DNA of 64,000 bases from a virus (taxonomy: Duplodnaviria; Caudoviricetes). Of this stretch, positions 41,210-45,086 are shown in pieces. Below the pieces are notes generated by a model. The model was not told the origin of the DNA. It did no database searches and saw only the letters and a list, made by a program, of their open reading frames with translations. Location of the stretch: positions 1 through 64,000 of IMG/VR virus record IMGVR_UViG_3300030620_000005. One strand, given 5' to 3'. Numbering within the stretch: the first letter of the stretch is position 1; every line of letters starts with the position of its first letter. The position numbers and the translations under genes were made by a program.

Positions 41210-41644
41210 CTAAGCCCACTCCTGCGCCGCGAGCAGCGCCCCGACCGCCCACACCGCAGGCCACACCAGCAACGGCACCGGCAGCCCCACCGACGCCCAC
41301 ACACCGCCCGTCACCGCGAGAGCCACCCAGCCGGACGCGCACCACGGGCACGACAGCAACTCCGCCAACCAGAACGGCGACCGCTTCCACCGACGGGCAT
41401 AGATCTGCAACTCGCCATCAACCAGGCTGAACATGCCTAGACCCCGGACGTTCTTCAGGACGCCCTCGTCGACTTCGCCTGTCGGGAACGCCTCGTGGTG
41501 CTGCTCCTTCATCGTCGGCTCACGCCAGCCGCCGACGAGCCGGTCACGCAGCCACAGCACGGGCGGAAAAGTGTCGGCCACAACGAGCCGCGTAAGCCGG
41601 TACACCGCGAGCGACATCACGAGCAGCAGCAACCAAGTCTCCAT
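41210..41644 (-). CDS. DUF1360-like membrane protein
   Basis: YRLTRLVVAD...ELLSCPWCASGW. Confidence 0.75.
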   Translation of the reverse strand: METWLLLLVMSLAVYRLTRLVVADTFPPVLWLRDRLVGGWREPTMKEQHHEAFPTGEVDEGVLKNVRGLGMFSLVDGELQIYARRWKRSPFWLAELLSCPWCASGWVALAVTGGVWASVGLPVPLLVWPAVWAVGALLAAQEWA

Positions 41645-41648
41645 GCCG

Positions 41649-44048
41649 TCAACGTACGCGCCCGCCAACAATCTGCTTTCTGGCCAGATCGCCACCCAAC
41701 GAACCCTGACCACGCGACGCCGTCCCCACCAACTTCAGATGCCACGCGGTCCACACGCAGTTGTGCACGAGGATTCCGTTCGCATAGAACTCGTGCTCAC
41801 CCTCGATCGTCAGGTCGTACACGGGCTGCCTTGTTTCGAGCGCGGAGATGCGCTCCACACGAGTTCGAGCACGTCGCCGGAACCGGCTGATACTTGCTCT
41901 GCATGAACTCCCCTCCGCAGATCGGGCAGTTCGCCGGCTTGCGATACCGGTCAGCGCGGTCAGCAACACGACGCATGCACGCAGGAGAGCAGTACCGCGA
42001 CTCCTTGAAGCCGCGCGTCTCGTAAGGCCTGTCACATGCTTGGCAGACCTCCGTGCGGTACTCCTGCTTGGCGTAGACATCCTTGCCGTGCTGTCGATGC
42101 CACTCGCGTCCCTCATCGCTGCTGTGCCACTCGGCAGCCATGGGGCGAATGCTCGCCAGGTGCTCCAGCCATTCCGGGCTATCGAGGTCCCGTTCGTGTT
42201 CGTGGAGCAGGGCGTGCTCCTTGCGGGTGACGCACCGGAGGTTGCTGGACTCGTTGTTGAGCGGGTTGAAGTCCACGTGGTGGATGACATGGCCGCGAGG
42301 AACTTCGTCAGCGCCGTTCGCAGCCTTCCAGACCTCGACGTGGAGCTGACCCATCCTGGGTATGCGCCGGCTGTTCGCGTAGGCAGTGAAGTAGACCCTC
42401 GACGAGCGACTCTTCGACAGAGGGAAACGAGTGAACGTGATGCCGTTGAAAACGACCGACTCAGTCTGTTTGGGCATACGTCAATTCTATCGCCCCAGAC
42501 CATCTCATCCACTCGAATGAACCCATTTTGTTCGGTCCATACCTTGTGATCTGGAGTGGCCGTGAACGCCCCGGCCGTCGTCACGACACGCATCACCTCA
42601 GCGCTCGGACGCGTCATGCCAGACCACGTCACACGGCGCCACCCGGCCCGCGTCCACGCCAAGTCGTCCGTCGTCACCTCCTCAATCGGGATCTGCCCGC
42701 GACGGGTAGTGACCAGAGTCCCGGCAACAAGGCACGCGTCCAATCGGTCCGGTGACCAGCCCGCTTCCGGGTACCAGGTCGCCATCTGGTCCTCCAGCTT
42801 CGGGAACTCGCCGGCGTGGTGCCACCTGTTCTGTGCAGTGAGCGCCGCCACGGGCTCCGCTCGCACCGCCTTGCCCCTGGTCGCGGTGACCGTGCGGATC
42901 GGAATGTCCACGCCGAGCGCGTCGGCCGCCGTGCGCAGCGTCGCGACGGCCATGTCCCCTCCAAAATTTCGCTCTACGACCAAGTCGTCTGCTTCCCAGT
43001 CGATCGCGGCCTGCACCGCGCGCCGGCCCCATCCGTCGGGCGACAACTGGCAGGACCGGTCGTCGAGGACGTAGCCGTGATGCTGCGGCCGGCCGCCATC
43101 CCCAGGAAGTACGAGGCCGGACTTCCCGACCACGACGATGCCCTGCTCCCCGGCGCCGCCGGACGGGTCGACGCCGACGGTGATTCGTACGAGGTCGGGT
43201 ACGTCGCCGGGCCGTACGCGCGCTTCGTCGATCATCGTGTGTTGCCAGAGCGCGTTCTCGTCTTCTTCGATCAGCTCGCCGTACAGTTCCTGACGGCCGA
43301 GCTGCGTGCCCGCATACCGTTCCTCGAGGGAGGCTTTGATGTCCTCGGAGATGTGCGGGTTGTCGCGGTAACTGGCGTGCGTCAGCATGACGTTCGCGAC
43401 CGCTCCGGAGTGCAACTGCTTGATGAGCGGCTTCGGCTTCGGCGTGGTCGAGGCGACCCAGTGCGGGCGCGGGCCGACACGGAGGCCGAACCGCATGTGG
43501 TCCCAGGCGTCGTCGAGGTGCCGCCACGCCGCCAACTCCTCCAGCCACGCGAGGCATCGGTTACCGCCGGACCGTAGGCGGTCGACGTCGTTGGGTCCTT
43601 CCGTGCCGAAGATCTTCGCCTCGGATCCGTTGGGCCAGCGGACGATGGTGCTGCCCTTGACGGTGGCGAGCTTCGCTTCTGGGCTGTGGACGCTCAGCCC
43701 GGATGGCCCGGAGAAGCAGGAGGTGACGGCGTCGCCTTGGGTGGGGCCGATGATGGCGATCCAGTGCGGGATCGGGCCGGGTAGGCAGGGCGGTCCGTGG
43801 ACGTGCTGGTGGACGTACGCGGCACACGCGTCCGTCTTGCCCGCCATCCTGCCGGCGAGCAACAGCCACCCGTAGAAGTCGCCGGGCGGCGGCACCTGGT
43901 GGGGAAGCGGAGTCCACCTGGGTTTCGTCAGCGCGTCGTAGAGGCTGCCCACGTCCGCAGCCGATCGGATAGCGGCCTCCGCGAATTCGGCGCGCGTGTT
44001 CCCCCGCTCCTGCTGGAGTGGGAAGAAGCTTTCCCAGTCGACGCCCAT
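41649..44048 (-). CDS. terL: Terminase large subunit, intein-containing
   Basis: LAGRMAGKT Walker A, WLEELAAW Walker B, VGVDPS nuclease motif, SPDRLDA/CVW; start supported by the promoter motif. Confidence 0.93.
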   Translation of the reverse strand: MGVDWESFFPLQQERGNTRAEFAEAAIRSAADVGSLYDALTKPRWTPLPHQVPPPGDFYGWLLLAGRMAGKTDACAAYVHQHVHGPPCLPGPIPHWIAIIGPTQGDAVTSCFSGPSGLSVHSPEAKLATVKGSTIVRWPNGSEAKIFGTEGPNDVDRLRSGGNRCLAWLEELAAWRHLDDAWDHMRFGLRVGPRPHWVASTTPKPKPLIKQLHSGAVANVMLTHASYRDNPHISEDIKASLEERYAGTQLGRQELYGELIEEDENALWQHTMIDEARVRPGDVPDLVRITVGVDPSGGAGEQGIVVVGKSGLVLPGDGGRPQHHGYVLDDRSCQLSPDGWGRRAVQAAIDWEADDLVVERNFGGDMAVATLRTAADALGVDIPIRTVTATRGKAVRAEPVAALTAQNRWHHAGEFPKLEDQMATWYPEAGWSPDRLDACLVAGTLVTTRRGQIPIEEVTTDDLAWTRAGWRRVTWSGMTRPSAEVMRVVTTAGAFTATPDHKVWTEQNGFIRVDEMVWGDRIDVCPNRLSRSFSTASRSLVSLCRRVARRGSTSLPTRTAGAYPGWVSSTSRSGRLRTALTKFLAAMSSTTWTSTRSTTSPATSGASPARSTPCSTNTNGTSIARNGWSTWRAFAPWLPSGTAAMRDASGIDSTARMSTPSRSTARRSAKHVTGLTRRAASRSRGTALLRACVVLLTALTGIASRRTARSAEGSSCRASISRFRRRARTRVERISALETRQPVYDLTIEGEHEFYANGILVHNCVWTAWHLKLVGTASRGQGSLGGDLARKQIVGGRVR
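41651..41683 (-). promoter_or_regulatory. Late promoter motif (leaderless, divergent copy)
   Basis: CCAGAA-N21-TACGTT-N6-ATG. Confidence 0.55.
41797..42477 (-). CDS. HNH homing endonuclease overprinted inside the intein in another frame
   Basis: IHHVDFNPLNNESSNL HNH motif plus CQAC/CSPAC and CPIC/CSNSC zinc fingers; own ATG and TGA. Confidence 0.9.
   Translation of the reverse strand: MPKQTESVVFNGITFTRFPLSKSRSSRVYFTAYANSRRIPRMGQLHVEVWKAANGADEVPRGHVIHHVDFNPLNNESSNLRCVTRKEHALLHEHERDLDSPEWLEHLASIRPMAAEWHSSDEGREWHRQHGKDVYAKQEYRTEVCQACDRPYETRGFKESRYCSPACMRRVADRADRYRKPANCPICGGEFMQSKYQPVPATCSNSCGAHLRARNKAARVRPDDRG
42484..42489 (-). promoter_or_regulatory. -10 box for a leaderless HNH transcript
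   Basis: TAGAAT 6 nt before the HNH ATG; no Shine-Dalgarno; no clear -35. Confidence 0.55.
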
Positions 44049-44054
44049 GGTCGG

Positions 44055-44087
44055 ATTGTGGCTGCTGTTCGAGGGTGTGCTGTCCGG
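44055..44087 (-). promoter_or_regulatory. Late promoter motif before terL (leaderless)
   Basis: CCGGAC-N21-CACAAT-N6-ATG. Confidence 0.6.
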
Positions 44088-44199
44088 AGCGGGGGTTGGT
44101 TGTTGTCTCGTACGCTGGCCGTGCGCCAGGGCCTCATGTCCCTCATTGACCCGTGGGCGCCCCCGGGAAGAAGCGCAAAGGGGCGCCACTCAGCGGCGG

Positions 44200-44772
44200 C
44201 TACCAGCGGTCGGGCAGACCCGAGGTGTGCTCGCCATGCCAGTGCCACAGCCACGTGCGTGCGGGGGCGTGGTGGAAGCGGGCTCCGGCTGCGAGGAGTT
44301 TGCGCCACAGGCCCCAGTCGTCGCAGGCGCTCTCCTGCTGGTCGCCGTACGGTTCGAAGCCGCCGACATCGCGTACGAGTTCGGTGCGGGCAAGGACCGT
44401 GACGGGGATGTAGTTCCGCTGGCGGAGGTCATCCGGGTCGAAGGGACGGCCGAATACGCCGGGCCACGGATCGAACGCGCGGGACGAGACCACATCGAAC
44501 CACGGATAGACCACGTCCGCGCCGGTCTCCGCGGCGCCCTTGACCAGGGTCAGGATGTGCTCGGGGCGCCACTCGTCATCGTCGTCGAGGAACGCCGAGT
44601 ACTCGGTGTCGACTGCGGCGAGCGCCCGGTTGCGGGCTGCGGCTGCGCCGATGTGCTGGTGGTCGACGTAGATGCTGGCGCCGGTGACGGGGCGGGTTTG
44701 GGCGTGGATGCTGTCGAGGGCACGGCGGAGGTAGTCGGCGCGGGGCGGGATGGTGGGGATGACGGCGGTCAC
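44200..44772 (-). CDS. GT2 glycosyltransferase
   Basis: TAVIPT, GAAAARNRAL, AFLDDDD, DDWGLW. Confidence 0.9.
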   Translation of the reverse strand: MTAVIPTIPPRADYLRRALDSIHAQTRPVTGASIYVDHQHIGAAAARNRALAAVDTEYSAFLDDDDEWRPEHILTLVKGAAETGADVVYPWFDVVSSRAFDPWPGVFGRPFDPDDLRQRNYIPVTVLARTELVRDVGGFEPYGDQQESACDDWGLWRKLLAAGARFHHAPARTWLWHWHGEHTSGLPDRW

Positions 44773-45086
44773 GCCTGGGTGGAGTGCCAAGGTTCGTCTC
44801 CGTCCTCTCGCTTGCGCCGTTCGCAGATGTCACAGACCGTTCCGCTGAGTGCGTAGTGAGTCCATTTCGGCTTGTGCGTGCGTCGCTTCCGGTCGGCGCG
44901 GTCGGCGAGGACGTTGATCATTCCTACGGTCTTAGGGGCCTCGCCGCTCAGTACTCGGTAGGCGTCTGCTGCGCCTTCGATGTAGGCCCGTTCTTCTTCG
45001 CCGAGGGAGTCTGACTCGTCGTCGTTGTCCAGGTCGGGGAGGCGTGCAATGAACTGCTTGAGCGCTTCCTCGTCGGGCGCGGCCAT
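44769..45086 (-). CDS. Hypothetical protein
   Basis: GGAGG RBS; coupled to the GT2 gene. Confidence 0.6.
   Translation of the reverse strand: MAAPDEEALKQFIARLPDLDNDDESDSLGEEERAYIEGAADAYRVLSGEAPKTVGMINVLADRADRKRRTHKPKWTHYALSGTVCDICERRKREDGDEPWHSTQA

What the first reader, a model, noticed from the sequence alone, without database searches (positions are those of the whole stretch)
41760..42734. Terminase intein with its homing endonuclease overprinted in a second reading frame
Seen: terL is one continuous ORF with canonical intein motifs (CLVAGTLV at 42734; TPDH; VYDLTI...VHN/C at 41760). The central ~225 codons of the intein frame are Ser/Thr/Arg/Ala-rich with no recognisable domain. The same DNA, shifted one frame, encodes a 226-aa HNH nuclease with two zinc-finger pairs. 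Its ATG at 42477 sits 6 nt after TAGAAT, with no Shine-Dalgarno, and its stop lies inside the DNA for intein block F. Established: inteins normally carry the endonuclease in frame, and leaderless transcripts are common in Actinobacteria. Inference: splicing and homing are decoupled. The intein must splice around a long nonsense linker to give functional terminase, while the nuclease is expressed separately from an internal promoter. I recall a hidden second-frame HNH being reported in an actinophage methylase insertion without splicing domains, so the degree of novelty needs a literature check.
Basis: partly seen in the sequence, partly recalled or inferred. Interest (0 to 1): 0.9.

Follow-up and report, generated by a model that had tools for sequence, protein, structure and literature searches.

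The report
Terminase intein with out-of-frame HNH gene
A phage DNA-packaging gene (terL) carries a self-splicing intein whose middle also encodes, one base out of step, a complete HNH homing nuclease with its own start signal; it is real, kept by selection and common in phages, but the layout was already described in 2025-26 for other nucleases.

Summary
terL (41649-44189, minus strand) is one open frame interrupted by a 325-residue intein (41760-42734). A 226-aa HNH_3 plus double zinc-ribbon gene (41797-42477) lies in frame 3 of the intein.

It is not an assembly error. Four independent metagenome assemblies show no indels. 73 of 80 viral contigs carrying this HNH family (GC 0.30-0.70) have the same nesting in the same relative frame, and none has it in frame.

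In the overlap, selection acts on the HNH frame (omega 0.14-0.21). The terL frame is only kept stop-free (omega 1.5-2.7) and folds as a roughly 200-residue disordered linker between two confident Hint lobes.

The ATG follows TAGAAT by 6 nt. The same TANNNT-N6-ATG geometry recurs in 21 of 29 high-GC relatives (background 1.6%). It is written in rare codons, and it is lost in a sister allele whose HNH gene was deleted. Other relatives use Shine-Dalgarno sites.

Novelty is limited. Out-of-frame intein endonucleases were reported by the Gogarten lab in 2025-26 (endonuclease VII-like, LAGLIDADG). This scan has already noted the same arrangement 88 times in at least 81 genomes. Verdict: a new variant of a known kind.

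The parts
41649..44189 (-). terL precursor ORF (longest form). The probable real start is ATG at 44048 (Met48).
   Evidence: Homologues start near Met48. CACAAT-N6-ATG at 44060-44046.
42735..44048 (-). N-extein: ATPase domain and most of the RNase H-like nuclease domain, ending SPDRLDA.
   Evidence: Pfam Terminase_6N 110-318 and Terminase_6C 356-487. Alignment with the intein-free TerL of Streptomyces phage mu1/6.
41760..42734 (-). Class 1 intein, 325 residues (Cys1 ... His-Asn).
42471..42734 (-). N-terminal splicing lobe (intein residues 1-88; blocks A and B with TPDH).
   Evidence: pLDDT 96-98, beta-rich. Foldseek matches mini-inteins. omega 0.08-0.17 in the terL frame.
41868..42470 (-). terL-frame linker (intein residues 89-289), Ser/Thr/Arg/Ala-rich and kept only stop-free.
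   Evidence: pLDDT about 40, no secondary structure. omega 1.5-2.7 in this frame. No Pfam hit.
41760..41867 (-). C-terminal splicing lobe (intein residues 290-325; blocks F and G, ending VHN).
   Evidence: pLDDT 96-98. VYDLT...ANGILVHN is conserved in 77 loci.
41649..41759 (-). C-extein starting with Cys+1 (CVWTAW...), including the stop codon.
41797..42477 (-). HNH homing-endonuclease gene, 226 aa, in frame 3 relative to terL (stop TGA at 41797-41799).
42211..42345 (-). HNH_3 catalytic core (residues 45-89; invariant H66, H67, N75, N79, H88).
   Evidence: Pfam HNH_3. Invariant columns. I-HmuI match, Z=6.9.
41977..42045 (-). First zinc ribbon (C145, C148, C163, C167).
   Evidence: Invariant in 26 relatives. 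Strand pairs in the model.
41857..41928 (-). Second zinc ribbon (C184, C187, C203, C207).
   Evidence: YacG-like or FCS-like zinc-finger matches
42484..42489 (-). -10-like hexamer TAGAAT, 6 nt upstream of the HNH ATG; inferred promoter of a leaderless HNH transcript.
   Evidence: The same geometry occurs in 37 of 70 relatives, and in 21 of 29 at GC>=0.58 against a 1.6% background. Rare codons GAT AGA ATT, and loss of the hexamer in the HNH-deleted allele.

Best explanation
This is a two-part selfish element inserted in the nuclease-domain motif SPDR(L/M)DA|xVW of the large terminase. Part one is a class 1 mini-intein-like Hint splicing domain, read in the terL frame. Its two lobes are joined by about 200 codons that mean nothing as protein and only have to stay free of stop codons. 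After translation the lobes fold, the linker stays disordered at the position where canonical inteins hold their endonuclease domain, and the intein splices out to give active TerL. Part two is an independent gene for an I-HmuI-like HNH nuclease with two C-terminal zinc ribbons, written in frame 3 across that linker. In this high-GC phage it is most likely transcribed from an internal -10 element (TAGAAT) as a leaderless mRNA that begins at its ATG (42477). The nuclease would cut intein-free terL alleles in co-infecting phages, and repair would copy the whole element in (homing). Shown here: the anatomy, selection on each frame, conservation of the arrangement and of the start signal, the predicted folds, and the existence of empty and HNH-deleted alleles. 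Inferred: transcription start, translation, splicing, and cleavage specificity.
For: - **Anatomy and domains:**
- **Same nesting, always the same relative frame:** Tetrasphaera phage TJE1, Clostridium phage phiCDHM19, Acinetobacter phage Highwayman and a Rhodobacteraceae phage, and 73 of 80 IMG/VR loci at GC 0.30-0.70.
- **No in-frame version found:** the best 150 of 3004 HNH cluster representatives are all 118-307 aa. None of 120 intein-bearing homologues or 59 enclosing ORFs carries an HNH Pfam domain.
- **The host frame is kept open by selection:** 0 stops observed in all 66 distinct loci. About 4 are expected in AT-rich loci (median P(0)=0.001). The third frame has a median of 17 stops.
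- **Substitutions shift position:** they peak at terL codon position 3 in the exteins and splicing lobes, and at terL position 2 (= HNH position 3) in the overlap. There are no indels in the 225 overlap codons.
- **dN/dS per frame:** omega is 0.14-0.21 in the HNH frame against 1.5-2.7 in the terL frame in the overlap, and 0.08-0.17 in the N splicing lobe.
- **Predicted structures:** the splicing lobes have pLDDT 96-98 and match solved mini-inteins; the linker has pLDDT about 40. The HNH protein has pLDDT 91.8, and its N-domain matches I-HmuI at Z=6.9.
- **Start signals:** TANNNT lies exactly about 6 nt before the ATG in 37 of 70 loci, and in 21 of 29 high-GC loci against a 1.6% background. Others have AGGAG-type Shine-Dalgarno sites. 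HNH-frame stops sit just upstream of the start.
- **Rare codons:** the window's hexamer is spelled in rare codons (GAT 18%, AGA 2%, ATT 9% of their families). It is replaced by common codons in the sister allele L094, where the HNH gene has an internal deletion.
- **Same geometry elsewhere in this phage:** terL's own probable start has the hexamer-N6-ATG layout.
- **Mobility:** an intein-free allele exists in Streptomyces phage mu1/6. The element sits in Terminase_6, Terminase_3 and GpA-type terminases and in a DegT aminotransferase. The intein is more similar between relatives than the exteins are.
- **Sequence integrity:** four independent assemblies show no indels.
Against: - No transcript, protein, splicing or cleavage data exist for this phage or any relative examined. 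No RNA run holds the stretch.
- A simple sigma-70 scan finds no full -35/-10 promoter. Only a -10-like hexamer supports the promoter.
- The GD residues encoded next to the hexamer are part of a conserved intein strand, so some of the DNA conservation there could come from the protein.
- For the window alone, the open terL frame is not statistically remarkable (P=0.14). The argument rests on relatives.
- omega for overlapping frames is biased by construction, so the values are comparative only.
Confidence: 0.8

Rival explanations
1. The element is the same, but there is no internal promoter. The HNH protein is made by internal translation initiation on the long terL (late) mRNA, and the TAGAAT hexamer is incidental.
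For: Many relatives clearly use an internal Shine-Dalgarno site (AGGAG-8-GTG in phiCDHM19, GGAGGG in LS06), which needs no separate promoter. No full sigma-70 promoter is found by the scan.
Against: The window has no Shine-Dalgarno within range of the ATG. TANNNT-N6-ATG is enriched more than 40-fold over background in high-GC relatives. It is written in rare codons and disappears when the HNH gene is deleted. terL itself seems to start leaderless with the same geometry.
Confidence: 0.12
2. The HNH ORF in this phage is a silent relic. The intein now behaves as a mini-intein with a junk linker and no longer homes.
For: Homing endonucleases are expected to decay after fixation. An HNH-deleted sister allele exists. 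No expression data are available.
Against: The window's copy keeps every invariant catalytic and zinc-binding residue. omega in the HNH frame is 0.14-0.21 against four relatives, with no indels. The start codon and -10 hexamer are intact. The model has pLDDT 91.8.
Confidence: 0.04
3. The HNH protein is not a homing enzyme but a packaging accessory of the terminase, like the HNH proteins next to cos sites in HK97-like phages. It is nested in terL for co-expression.
For: HNH genes next to terminase genes are common and some are needed for cos cleavage (abstract of PMC3592412). Free-standing relatives sit directly after terL in L040 and L070.
Against: The nesting follows the intein, not the terminase. 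The same intein-plus-HNH unit sits in a DegT aminotransferase (L011) and in three unrelated terminase families. Intein-free and HNH-deleted terL alleles exist. The closest solved relative is the intron homing enzyme I-HmuI.
Confidence: 0.03
4. Assembly or sequencing artefact: two compensating indels hide an ordinary in-frame HNH intein.
For: The window comes from a metagenome-derived viral contig.
Against: Contigs from four studies carry 41659-42900 without a single indel. The same frame relation holds in 73 of 80 loci and in four cultured phages. The HNH frame is closed by TGA and TAG just upstream of its ATG.
Confidence: 0.01

Closest known systems
[quoted passage not shown]
   Same: A same-strand nuclease gene lies in frame 3 between the splicing blocks. 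The intein frame is stop-free and unstructured. Many are in terL. The proposed origin is invasion of a mini-intein by a free-standing endonuclease gene.
   Different: The nuclease family differs. Theirs is a short Endonuclease_7-type protein (CVDHDH...CNDCN) in 795-nt inteins of Gordonia-type phages. Here it is a 226-aa HNH_3 / I-HmuI-like protein with two zinc ribbons. No PhagesDB-type phage was hit by tblastn. This family spans GC 0.30-0.70 and several terminase families.
Cyanobacterial dnaX intein with an out-of-frame LAGLIDADG endonuclease (Phillips, DeSimone & Gogarten, bioRxiv 10.64898/2026.09.14.751524)
   Same: Splicing domain and endonuclease are in overlapping frames. The intein-frame region is disordered. 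omega is frame-dependent, with purifying selection on the nuclease frame.
   Different: LAGLIDADG rather than HNH. The host gene is cellular (dnaX) rather than phage terL. No promoter analysis is reported.
ShiLan domain: hidden out-of-frame HNH in mycobacteriophage DNA methylases (Arsenault, Gosselin & Gogarten, Genes 2025, PMC11855218)
   Same: An HNH gene with zinc fingers lies in the third frame of a host ORF that stays stop-free.
   Different: ShiLan has no splicing domain, so the host protein keeps the insert. Here canonical Hint lobes flank the gene. The domain order also differs: central HNH with flanking fingers there, N-terminal HNH with two C-terminal ribbons here.
Fractured genes: split inteins with a free-standing endonuclease gene between the halves (Dassa et al., NAR 2009, PMC2677866)
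   Same: The endonuclease is a separate gene lodged at the intein's endonuclease position. Same proposed origin.
   Different: There the host gene is broken into two ORFs and spliced in trans. Here the host frame runs through the nuclease gene and splicing is in cis.
I-HmuI (PDB 1U3E), intron-encoded HNH homing endonuclease of Bacillus phage SPO1
   Same: Closest solved relative of the nuclease core: profile E=0.0023; Z=6.9, rmsd 3.1 A over 76 residues, 24% identity.
   Different: I-HmuI sits in a group I intron and lacks the two C-terminal zinc ribbons and the WH..EGR.WH helical region.

Membership tests
Intein (class 1 Hint splicing domain) | Nucleophilic Cys/Ser at intein position 1 and Cys/Ser/Thr at +1 of the C-extein | tested here: met
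   Cys486 and Cys811. C1 is invariant, and +1 is C or S in 77 loci.
Intein (class 1 Hint splicing domain) | Block B TxxH and terminal His-Asn (block G) | tested here: met
   TPDH and VHN are present. T545/H548 and N810 are conserved to invariant. Relatives also show SN, GN, KN and LN.
Intein (class 1 Hint splicing domain) | Hint fold formed by the N- and C-terminal lobes | tested here: met
   Pfam Hint_2 and Intein_splicing. The AF2 lobes have pLDDT 96-98. Foldseek gives prob 1.0 to NrdJ-1, gp41-1, DnaX and RecA mini-inteins.
Intein (class 1 Hint splicing domain) | Protein splicing activity | not testable with these tools
   Inferred from terL being essential and from omega 0.08-0.17 on the splicing lobe.
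HNH / His-Me finger endonuclease (Pfam HNH_3) | HNH catalytic motif in a beta-beta-alpha-metal core | tested here: met
   HNH_3 at E=1.2e-12, above the gathering score. H66, H67, N75, N79 and H88 are invariant. I-HmuI match at Z=6.9.
HNH / His-Me finger endonuclease (Pfam HNH_3) | Nuclease activity | not testable with these tools
   No assay was possible.
Homing endonuclease gene of a mobile intein | Lies inside the mobile element at the canonical endonuclease position; occupied, empty and degenerate alleles coexist; the element is found in divergent hosts | tested here: met
   Empty allele: mu1/6. HNH-deleted allele: L094. The element occurs in four extein families. The intein is less diverged than the extein.
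Homing endonuclease gene of a mobile intein | Cleaves the intein-free target site | not testable with these tools
   No assay was possible.
Non-canonical inteins with an out-of-frame endonuclease (Gosselin et al. 2025) | Endonuclease ORF on the same strand, in frame 3, between the splicing blocks; intein frame stop-free and unstructured | tested here: met
Non-canonical inteins with an out-of-frame endonuclease (Gosselin et al. 2025) | Endonuclease of the endonuclease VII-like family (IPR004211) | tested here: not met
   Only HNH_3 is found at E<=0.1. Their sequences are a different, shorter family. So this is the same architecture with another nuclease lineage.
Large terminase, Terminase_6 type | N-terminal ATPase plus C-terminal RNase H-like nuclease domain | tested here: met
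   Terminase_6N at E=5e-15. Terminase_6C at E=9e-4 is below the cut-off because the intein splits it. 46% identity to mu1/6 TerL after removing the intein.

The most novel reading that the evidence does not exclude
This HNH_3/double-zinc-ribbon lineage (over 1,000 protein clusters) may be an almost obligately intein-nested gene. It would have co-evolved with one mini-intein lineage across phages of all major host phyla, always in frame 3. That would be because only this register lets the host frame be cleared of stops by synonymous changes: a median of 17 stops in the other frame, against 2-4 removable ones in the host frame. It would carry host-adapted expression signals written into intein codons: an internal -10/leaderless start in high-GC hosts and Shine-Dalgarno sites elsewhere. 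These would let the nuclease be made independently of late terL expression. That would amount to a general design rule for selfish genes that hide inside essential ORFs.
Probability: 0.4. Interest if true: 0.6.

Novelty: new variant of a known kind. Interest (0 to 1): 0.45.

Why it matters
- **Origin of inteins.** It gives an abundant, cross-phylum example of an intein whose splicing and homing functions are separate genes sharing one stretch of DNA. This supports the 'splicing domain first, endonuclease invaded later' view of intein origins.
- **Annotation.** Gene callers and intein surveys systematically miss these nucleases. The terL ORFs of TJE1, phiCDHM19 and Highwayman are annotated as plain terminases, and such inteins may be misread as decaying.
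- **Testable biology.** A 200-residue meaningless linker must be tolerated by splicing in an essential protein. A promoter is written into rare codons of that protein. These give concrete, testable cases of dual coding and of how a selfish gene secures its own expression.
- **Engineering.** The splicing lobes are a natural mini-intein that tolerates a long disordered insert.

Tried and rejected
- **RNA evidence.** No RNA holder is listed among the 24 runs, so expression could not be examined.
- **Sigma-70 scan.** The simple promoter scan of 41500-44400 found nothing. It requires a -35 element, so it does not test a -10-only promoter.
- **Foldseek with the whole HNH model.** No hit at E<=0.001; the best was I-HmuI at E=0.11. 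The wide VIA search was needed.
- **blastn of terL against phages.** It gave only short extein matches and no close cultured relative.
- **Programmed frameshift into the HNH frame.** Considered and rejected, because TGA and TAG close that frame 2 and 4 codons before the ATG. Most relatives likewise have a stop within about 4 codons upstream.
- **Regex for the N-terminal intein boundary.** It was unreliable for about 12 loci. Boundaries were taken from alignment A3 instead.
- **Pfam on the 75-member alignment.** It exceeded the size limit and was repeated with 59 members.
- **Earlier reports.** A literature search for earlier reports of inteins in the phiCD119, phiCDHM19 or TJE1 terL genes found none in the searchable library. 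A pre-2025 search for out-of-frame intein HNH genes found nothing relevant. One earlier scan note mentions a 2015 report that I could not trace.
Full report
**What is in the sequence**

- On the minus strand, 41649-44189 is one ORF of 846 codons. Pfam finds Terminase_6N, Terminase_6C, Hint_2 and Intein_splicing.
- The intein is TerL residues 486-810 (42734 down to 41760). It begins CLVAGT, contains TPDH, and ends VHN followed by Cys+1.
- A second ORF, 41797-42477, starts 1712 nt (2 mod 3) after the terL start, so it is in frame 3.
- This second ORF encodes a 226-aa protein that matches Pfam HNH_3 (E=1.2e-12) and phrog_15471 'HNH endonuclease' (E=1.2e-28).
TAGAAT lies at 42489-42484, 6 nt before the ATG. 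There is no Shine-Dalgarno sequence in range. The HNH frame is closed by TGA and TAG 2 and 4 codons upstream.
- The window is part of a 72-kb IMG/VR viral record with a single copy of the HNH gene.

**Not an artefact**

- Contigs from four different studies cover 41659-42900 with no indel. One 3308-nt contig is identical, and three runs share a single A>C change at 42209.
- tblastn with the HNH protein hits inside the annotated terL genes of four cultured phages: Tetrasphaera phage TJE1, Clostridium phage phiCDHM19, Acinetobacter phage Highwayman and a Rhodobacteraceae phage. In all four, terL is continuous and the HNH ORF has the same 2-mod-3 offset.
- A profile of 26 HNH relatives retrieved 80 IMG/VR loci. 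In 73 of them an ORF of 600-1259 codons is open across the entire HNH gene, always in the same relative frame. The HNH stop is followed within 2-30 codons (median 20) by intein blocks F and G (VYNLTV...ANGILVHN|C).
- Of 59 distinct enclosing ORFs, 57 match Intein_splicing and none carries an HNH domain in frame. The exteins are Terminase_6 (34), Terminase_3 (23), GpA-type (3) and one DegT aminotransferase.
- An exhaustive HMMER search found 3004 HNH cluster representatives (1268 at E<=1e-10). The best 150 are all 118-307 aa, so no in-frame fusion appears among them.
- The seven non-nested loci are genuinely free-standing genes. Two sit directly after a terL gene.

**Selection on each frame**

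- In all 66 distinct IMG/VR loci the host frame has zero stops over the HNH gene.
- After synonymous-codon shuffling, about 4 stops are expected in AT-rich loci (median P of none = 0.001), 2.5 at medium GC and 1.7 at high GC. The third frame has a median of 17 stops.
- For the window alone P is 0.14, so the argument rests on relatives.
- Against four relatives (L005, L008, L009, L012), substitutions peak at terL codon position 3 in the exteins and both splicing lobes. In the overlap they peak at terL position 2, which is HNH position 3. There are no indels in the 225 overlap codons.
- Nei-Gojobori omega values are as follows:

| Region and frame | omega |
|---|---|
| Overlap, HNH frame | 0.14-0.21 |
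| Overlap, terL frame | 1.5-2.7 |
| N-terminal splicing lobe, terL frame | 0.08-0.17 |
| N-extein, terL frame | 0.16-0.32 |

- Such values are biased for overlapping frames and are used only comparatively.

**Predicted structures**

- In the terL frame, intein residues 1-88 and 290-325 have pLDDT 96-98. They match solved mini-inteins (NrdJ-1, gp41-1, DnaX, Mtu RecA splicing domain; probability 1.0).
- Residues 90-289 have pLDDT of about 40 and no secondary structure.
- The HNH-frame protein has mean pLDDT 91.8.
- Its N-terminal domain matches the intron homing enzyme I-HmuI (Z=6.9, rmsd 3.1 A over 76 residues; profile E=0.0023).
- The catalytic residues H66, H67, N75, N79 and H88, a WH..EGR.WH segment and two four-Cys ribbons are invariant in 26 relatives.
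- The last 23 or so HNH codons overlap the folded C-terminal splicing lobe. That short stretch is constrained in both frames.

**How the nuclease is expressed (inferred)**

- Among 70 distinct loci, 37 have TANNNT about 6 nt before the HNH start, typically GGTGATATAAT-N6-ATG or GGCGATAGAAT-N6-ATG, which resembles an extended -10 element.
- At GC>=0.58 the count is 21 of 29, against a 1.6% background.
- Other loci have clear Shine-Dalgarno sites instead. Most have an HNH-frame stop within about 4 codons upstream of the start, which argues against a frameshift fusion.
- In the window the hexamer is spelled GAT AGA ATT. These codons make up 18%, 2% and 9% of their families in this phage.
- A natural control exists. 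A sister terL (P0012/L094, 64% identical) has the same intein at the same site but only 144 residues. Its HNH frame retains just the two ends of the gene (…ESVVSNGITF joined to RPVPATCS). There the hexamer has become GAC AGC CC.
- terL's own probable start (ATG 44048, Met48, matching the homologues' N-termini) lies 6 nt after CACAAT. A CCGGAC element begins 27 nt before that hexamer, as an earlier scan note describes. Leaderless starts with this geometry therefore appear to be used by this phage.
- It is established knowledge that -10-only promoters and leaderless mRNAs are common in Actinobacteria.
- A simple -35/-10 scan finds no full sigma-70 promoter, and no RNA data exist.

**Mobility**

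- Streptomyces phage mu1/6 TerL (448 aa) is an intein-free allele: GSPDRMDA|LVWAATHL against WSPDRLDA|intein|CVWTAWHL.
- With the HNH-deleted allele, all three states of the homing cycle (empty, occupied, degenerate) are seen.
- The intein is less diverged than the exteins between relatives.
- The unit occurs in unrelated terminase families and in a sugar aminotransferase.

**Comparison with what is known**

- The architecture is published.
[quoted passage not shown] They propose invasion of a mini-intein by a free-standing endonuclease gene.
  - Phillips et al. (bioRxiv 2026) describe an out-of-frame LAGLIDADG gene in cyanobacterial dnaX inteins, with the same frame-dependent omega.
  - Arsenault et al. 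(Genes 2025) describe a hidden frame-3 HNH gene in methylases without splicing domains.
- The 2025 endonuclease VII-like sequences are a different, shorter family. No PhagesDB-type phage was hit by this HNH protein.
- I found no paper linking the phiCD119, phiCDHM19 or TJE1 terL genes to an intein.
- This scan has already noted the same arrangement 88 times in at least 81 genomes, with follow-ups reaching the same verdict.

**Verdict**

It is a new variant (an HNH_3/zinc-ribbon nuclease lineage, cross-phylum) of a recently described kind.

What this window adds:
- Evidence for a conserved -10/leaderless start written into intein codons, with a deletion allele as a natural control.
- A stop-codon rationale for the frame-3 rule.

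Noticed in passing
window 44046-44087 (-): The terL ORF probably starts at ATG 44048 (Met48), not at GTG 44189. CACAAT lies 6 nt upstream and CCGGAC begins 27 nt before that hexamer. This matches the 'late promoter family' noted by another reader, and it makes terL itself leaderless.
   Followed up: partly
L094:1001-2857 (protein P0012): Sister terL allele with a 144-residue mini-intein at the same site. The HNH frame keeps only the first 15 or so and last 30 or so codons of the nuclease gene, which indicates an internal, frame-preserving deletion. The -10-like hexamer is lost.
   Followed up: yes
L011:3001-5085: The same intein plus out-of-frame HNH unit interrupts a DegT/DnrJ/EryC1 aminotransferase inside a sugar-biosynthesis gene cluster. 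The element is therefore not restricted to terminases.
   Followed up: partly
L040 and L070 (IMG/VR loci): Free-standing members of the same HNH family lie immediately downstream of a terL gene whose C-terminus carries the DA(L)RY homing-site motif. They are possible ancestors of, or escapees from, the nested form.
   Followed up: partly
alignment A3 /: Two neighbouring insertion points seem to be used: after DA in Terminase_6-type genes (SPxRxDA|CVW), and about three residues earlier in Terminase_3-type genes (DDH|CDAxRY). The penultimate intein residue is often not His (SN 18, GN 3, LN 3, KN 2 of 77).
   Followed up: no
L016, L083 and one more member of A3: Three enclosing terminase ORFs (up to 1259 aa) also carry a LAGLIDADG_3 domain. 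This is presumably a second, canonical intein in the same gene.
   Followed up: no
window 44200-44790 (-) and 41210-41713 (-): terL is flanked upstream by GT2-type glycosyltransferase genes and downstream by a DUF1360-like membrane protein. The synteny is conserved in relatives L005, L009 and L094.
   Followed up: no
window 42209: Three independent metagenome assemblies carry C instead of A (plus strand). The change falls at HNH codon 90, position 2, a variable position in the family.
   Followed up: partly
L001 (TJE1), L002 (phiCDHM19), L003 (Highwayman), L004: GenBank annotations of these cultured phages list only 'terminase large subunit' over the region. Neither the intein nor the nested HNH gene is annotated.
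   Followed up: yes
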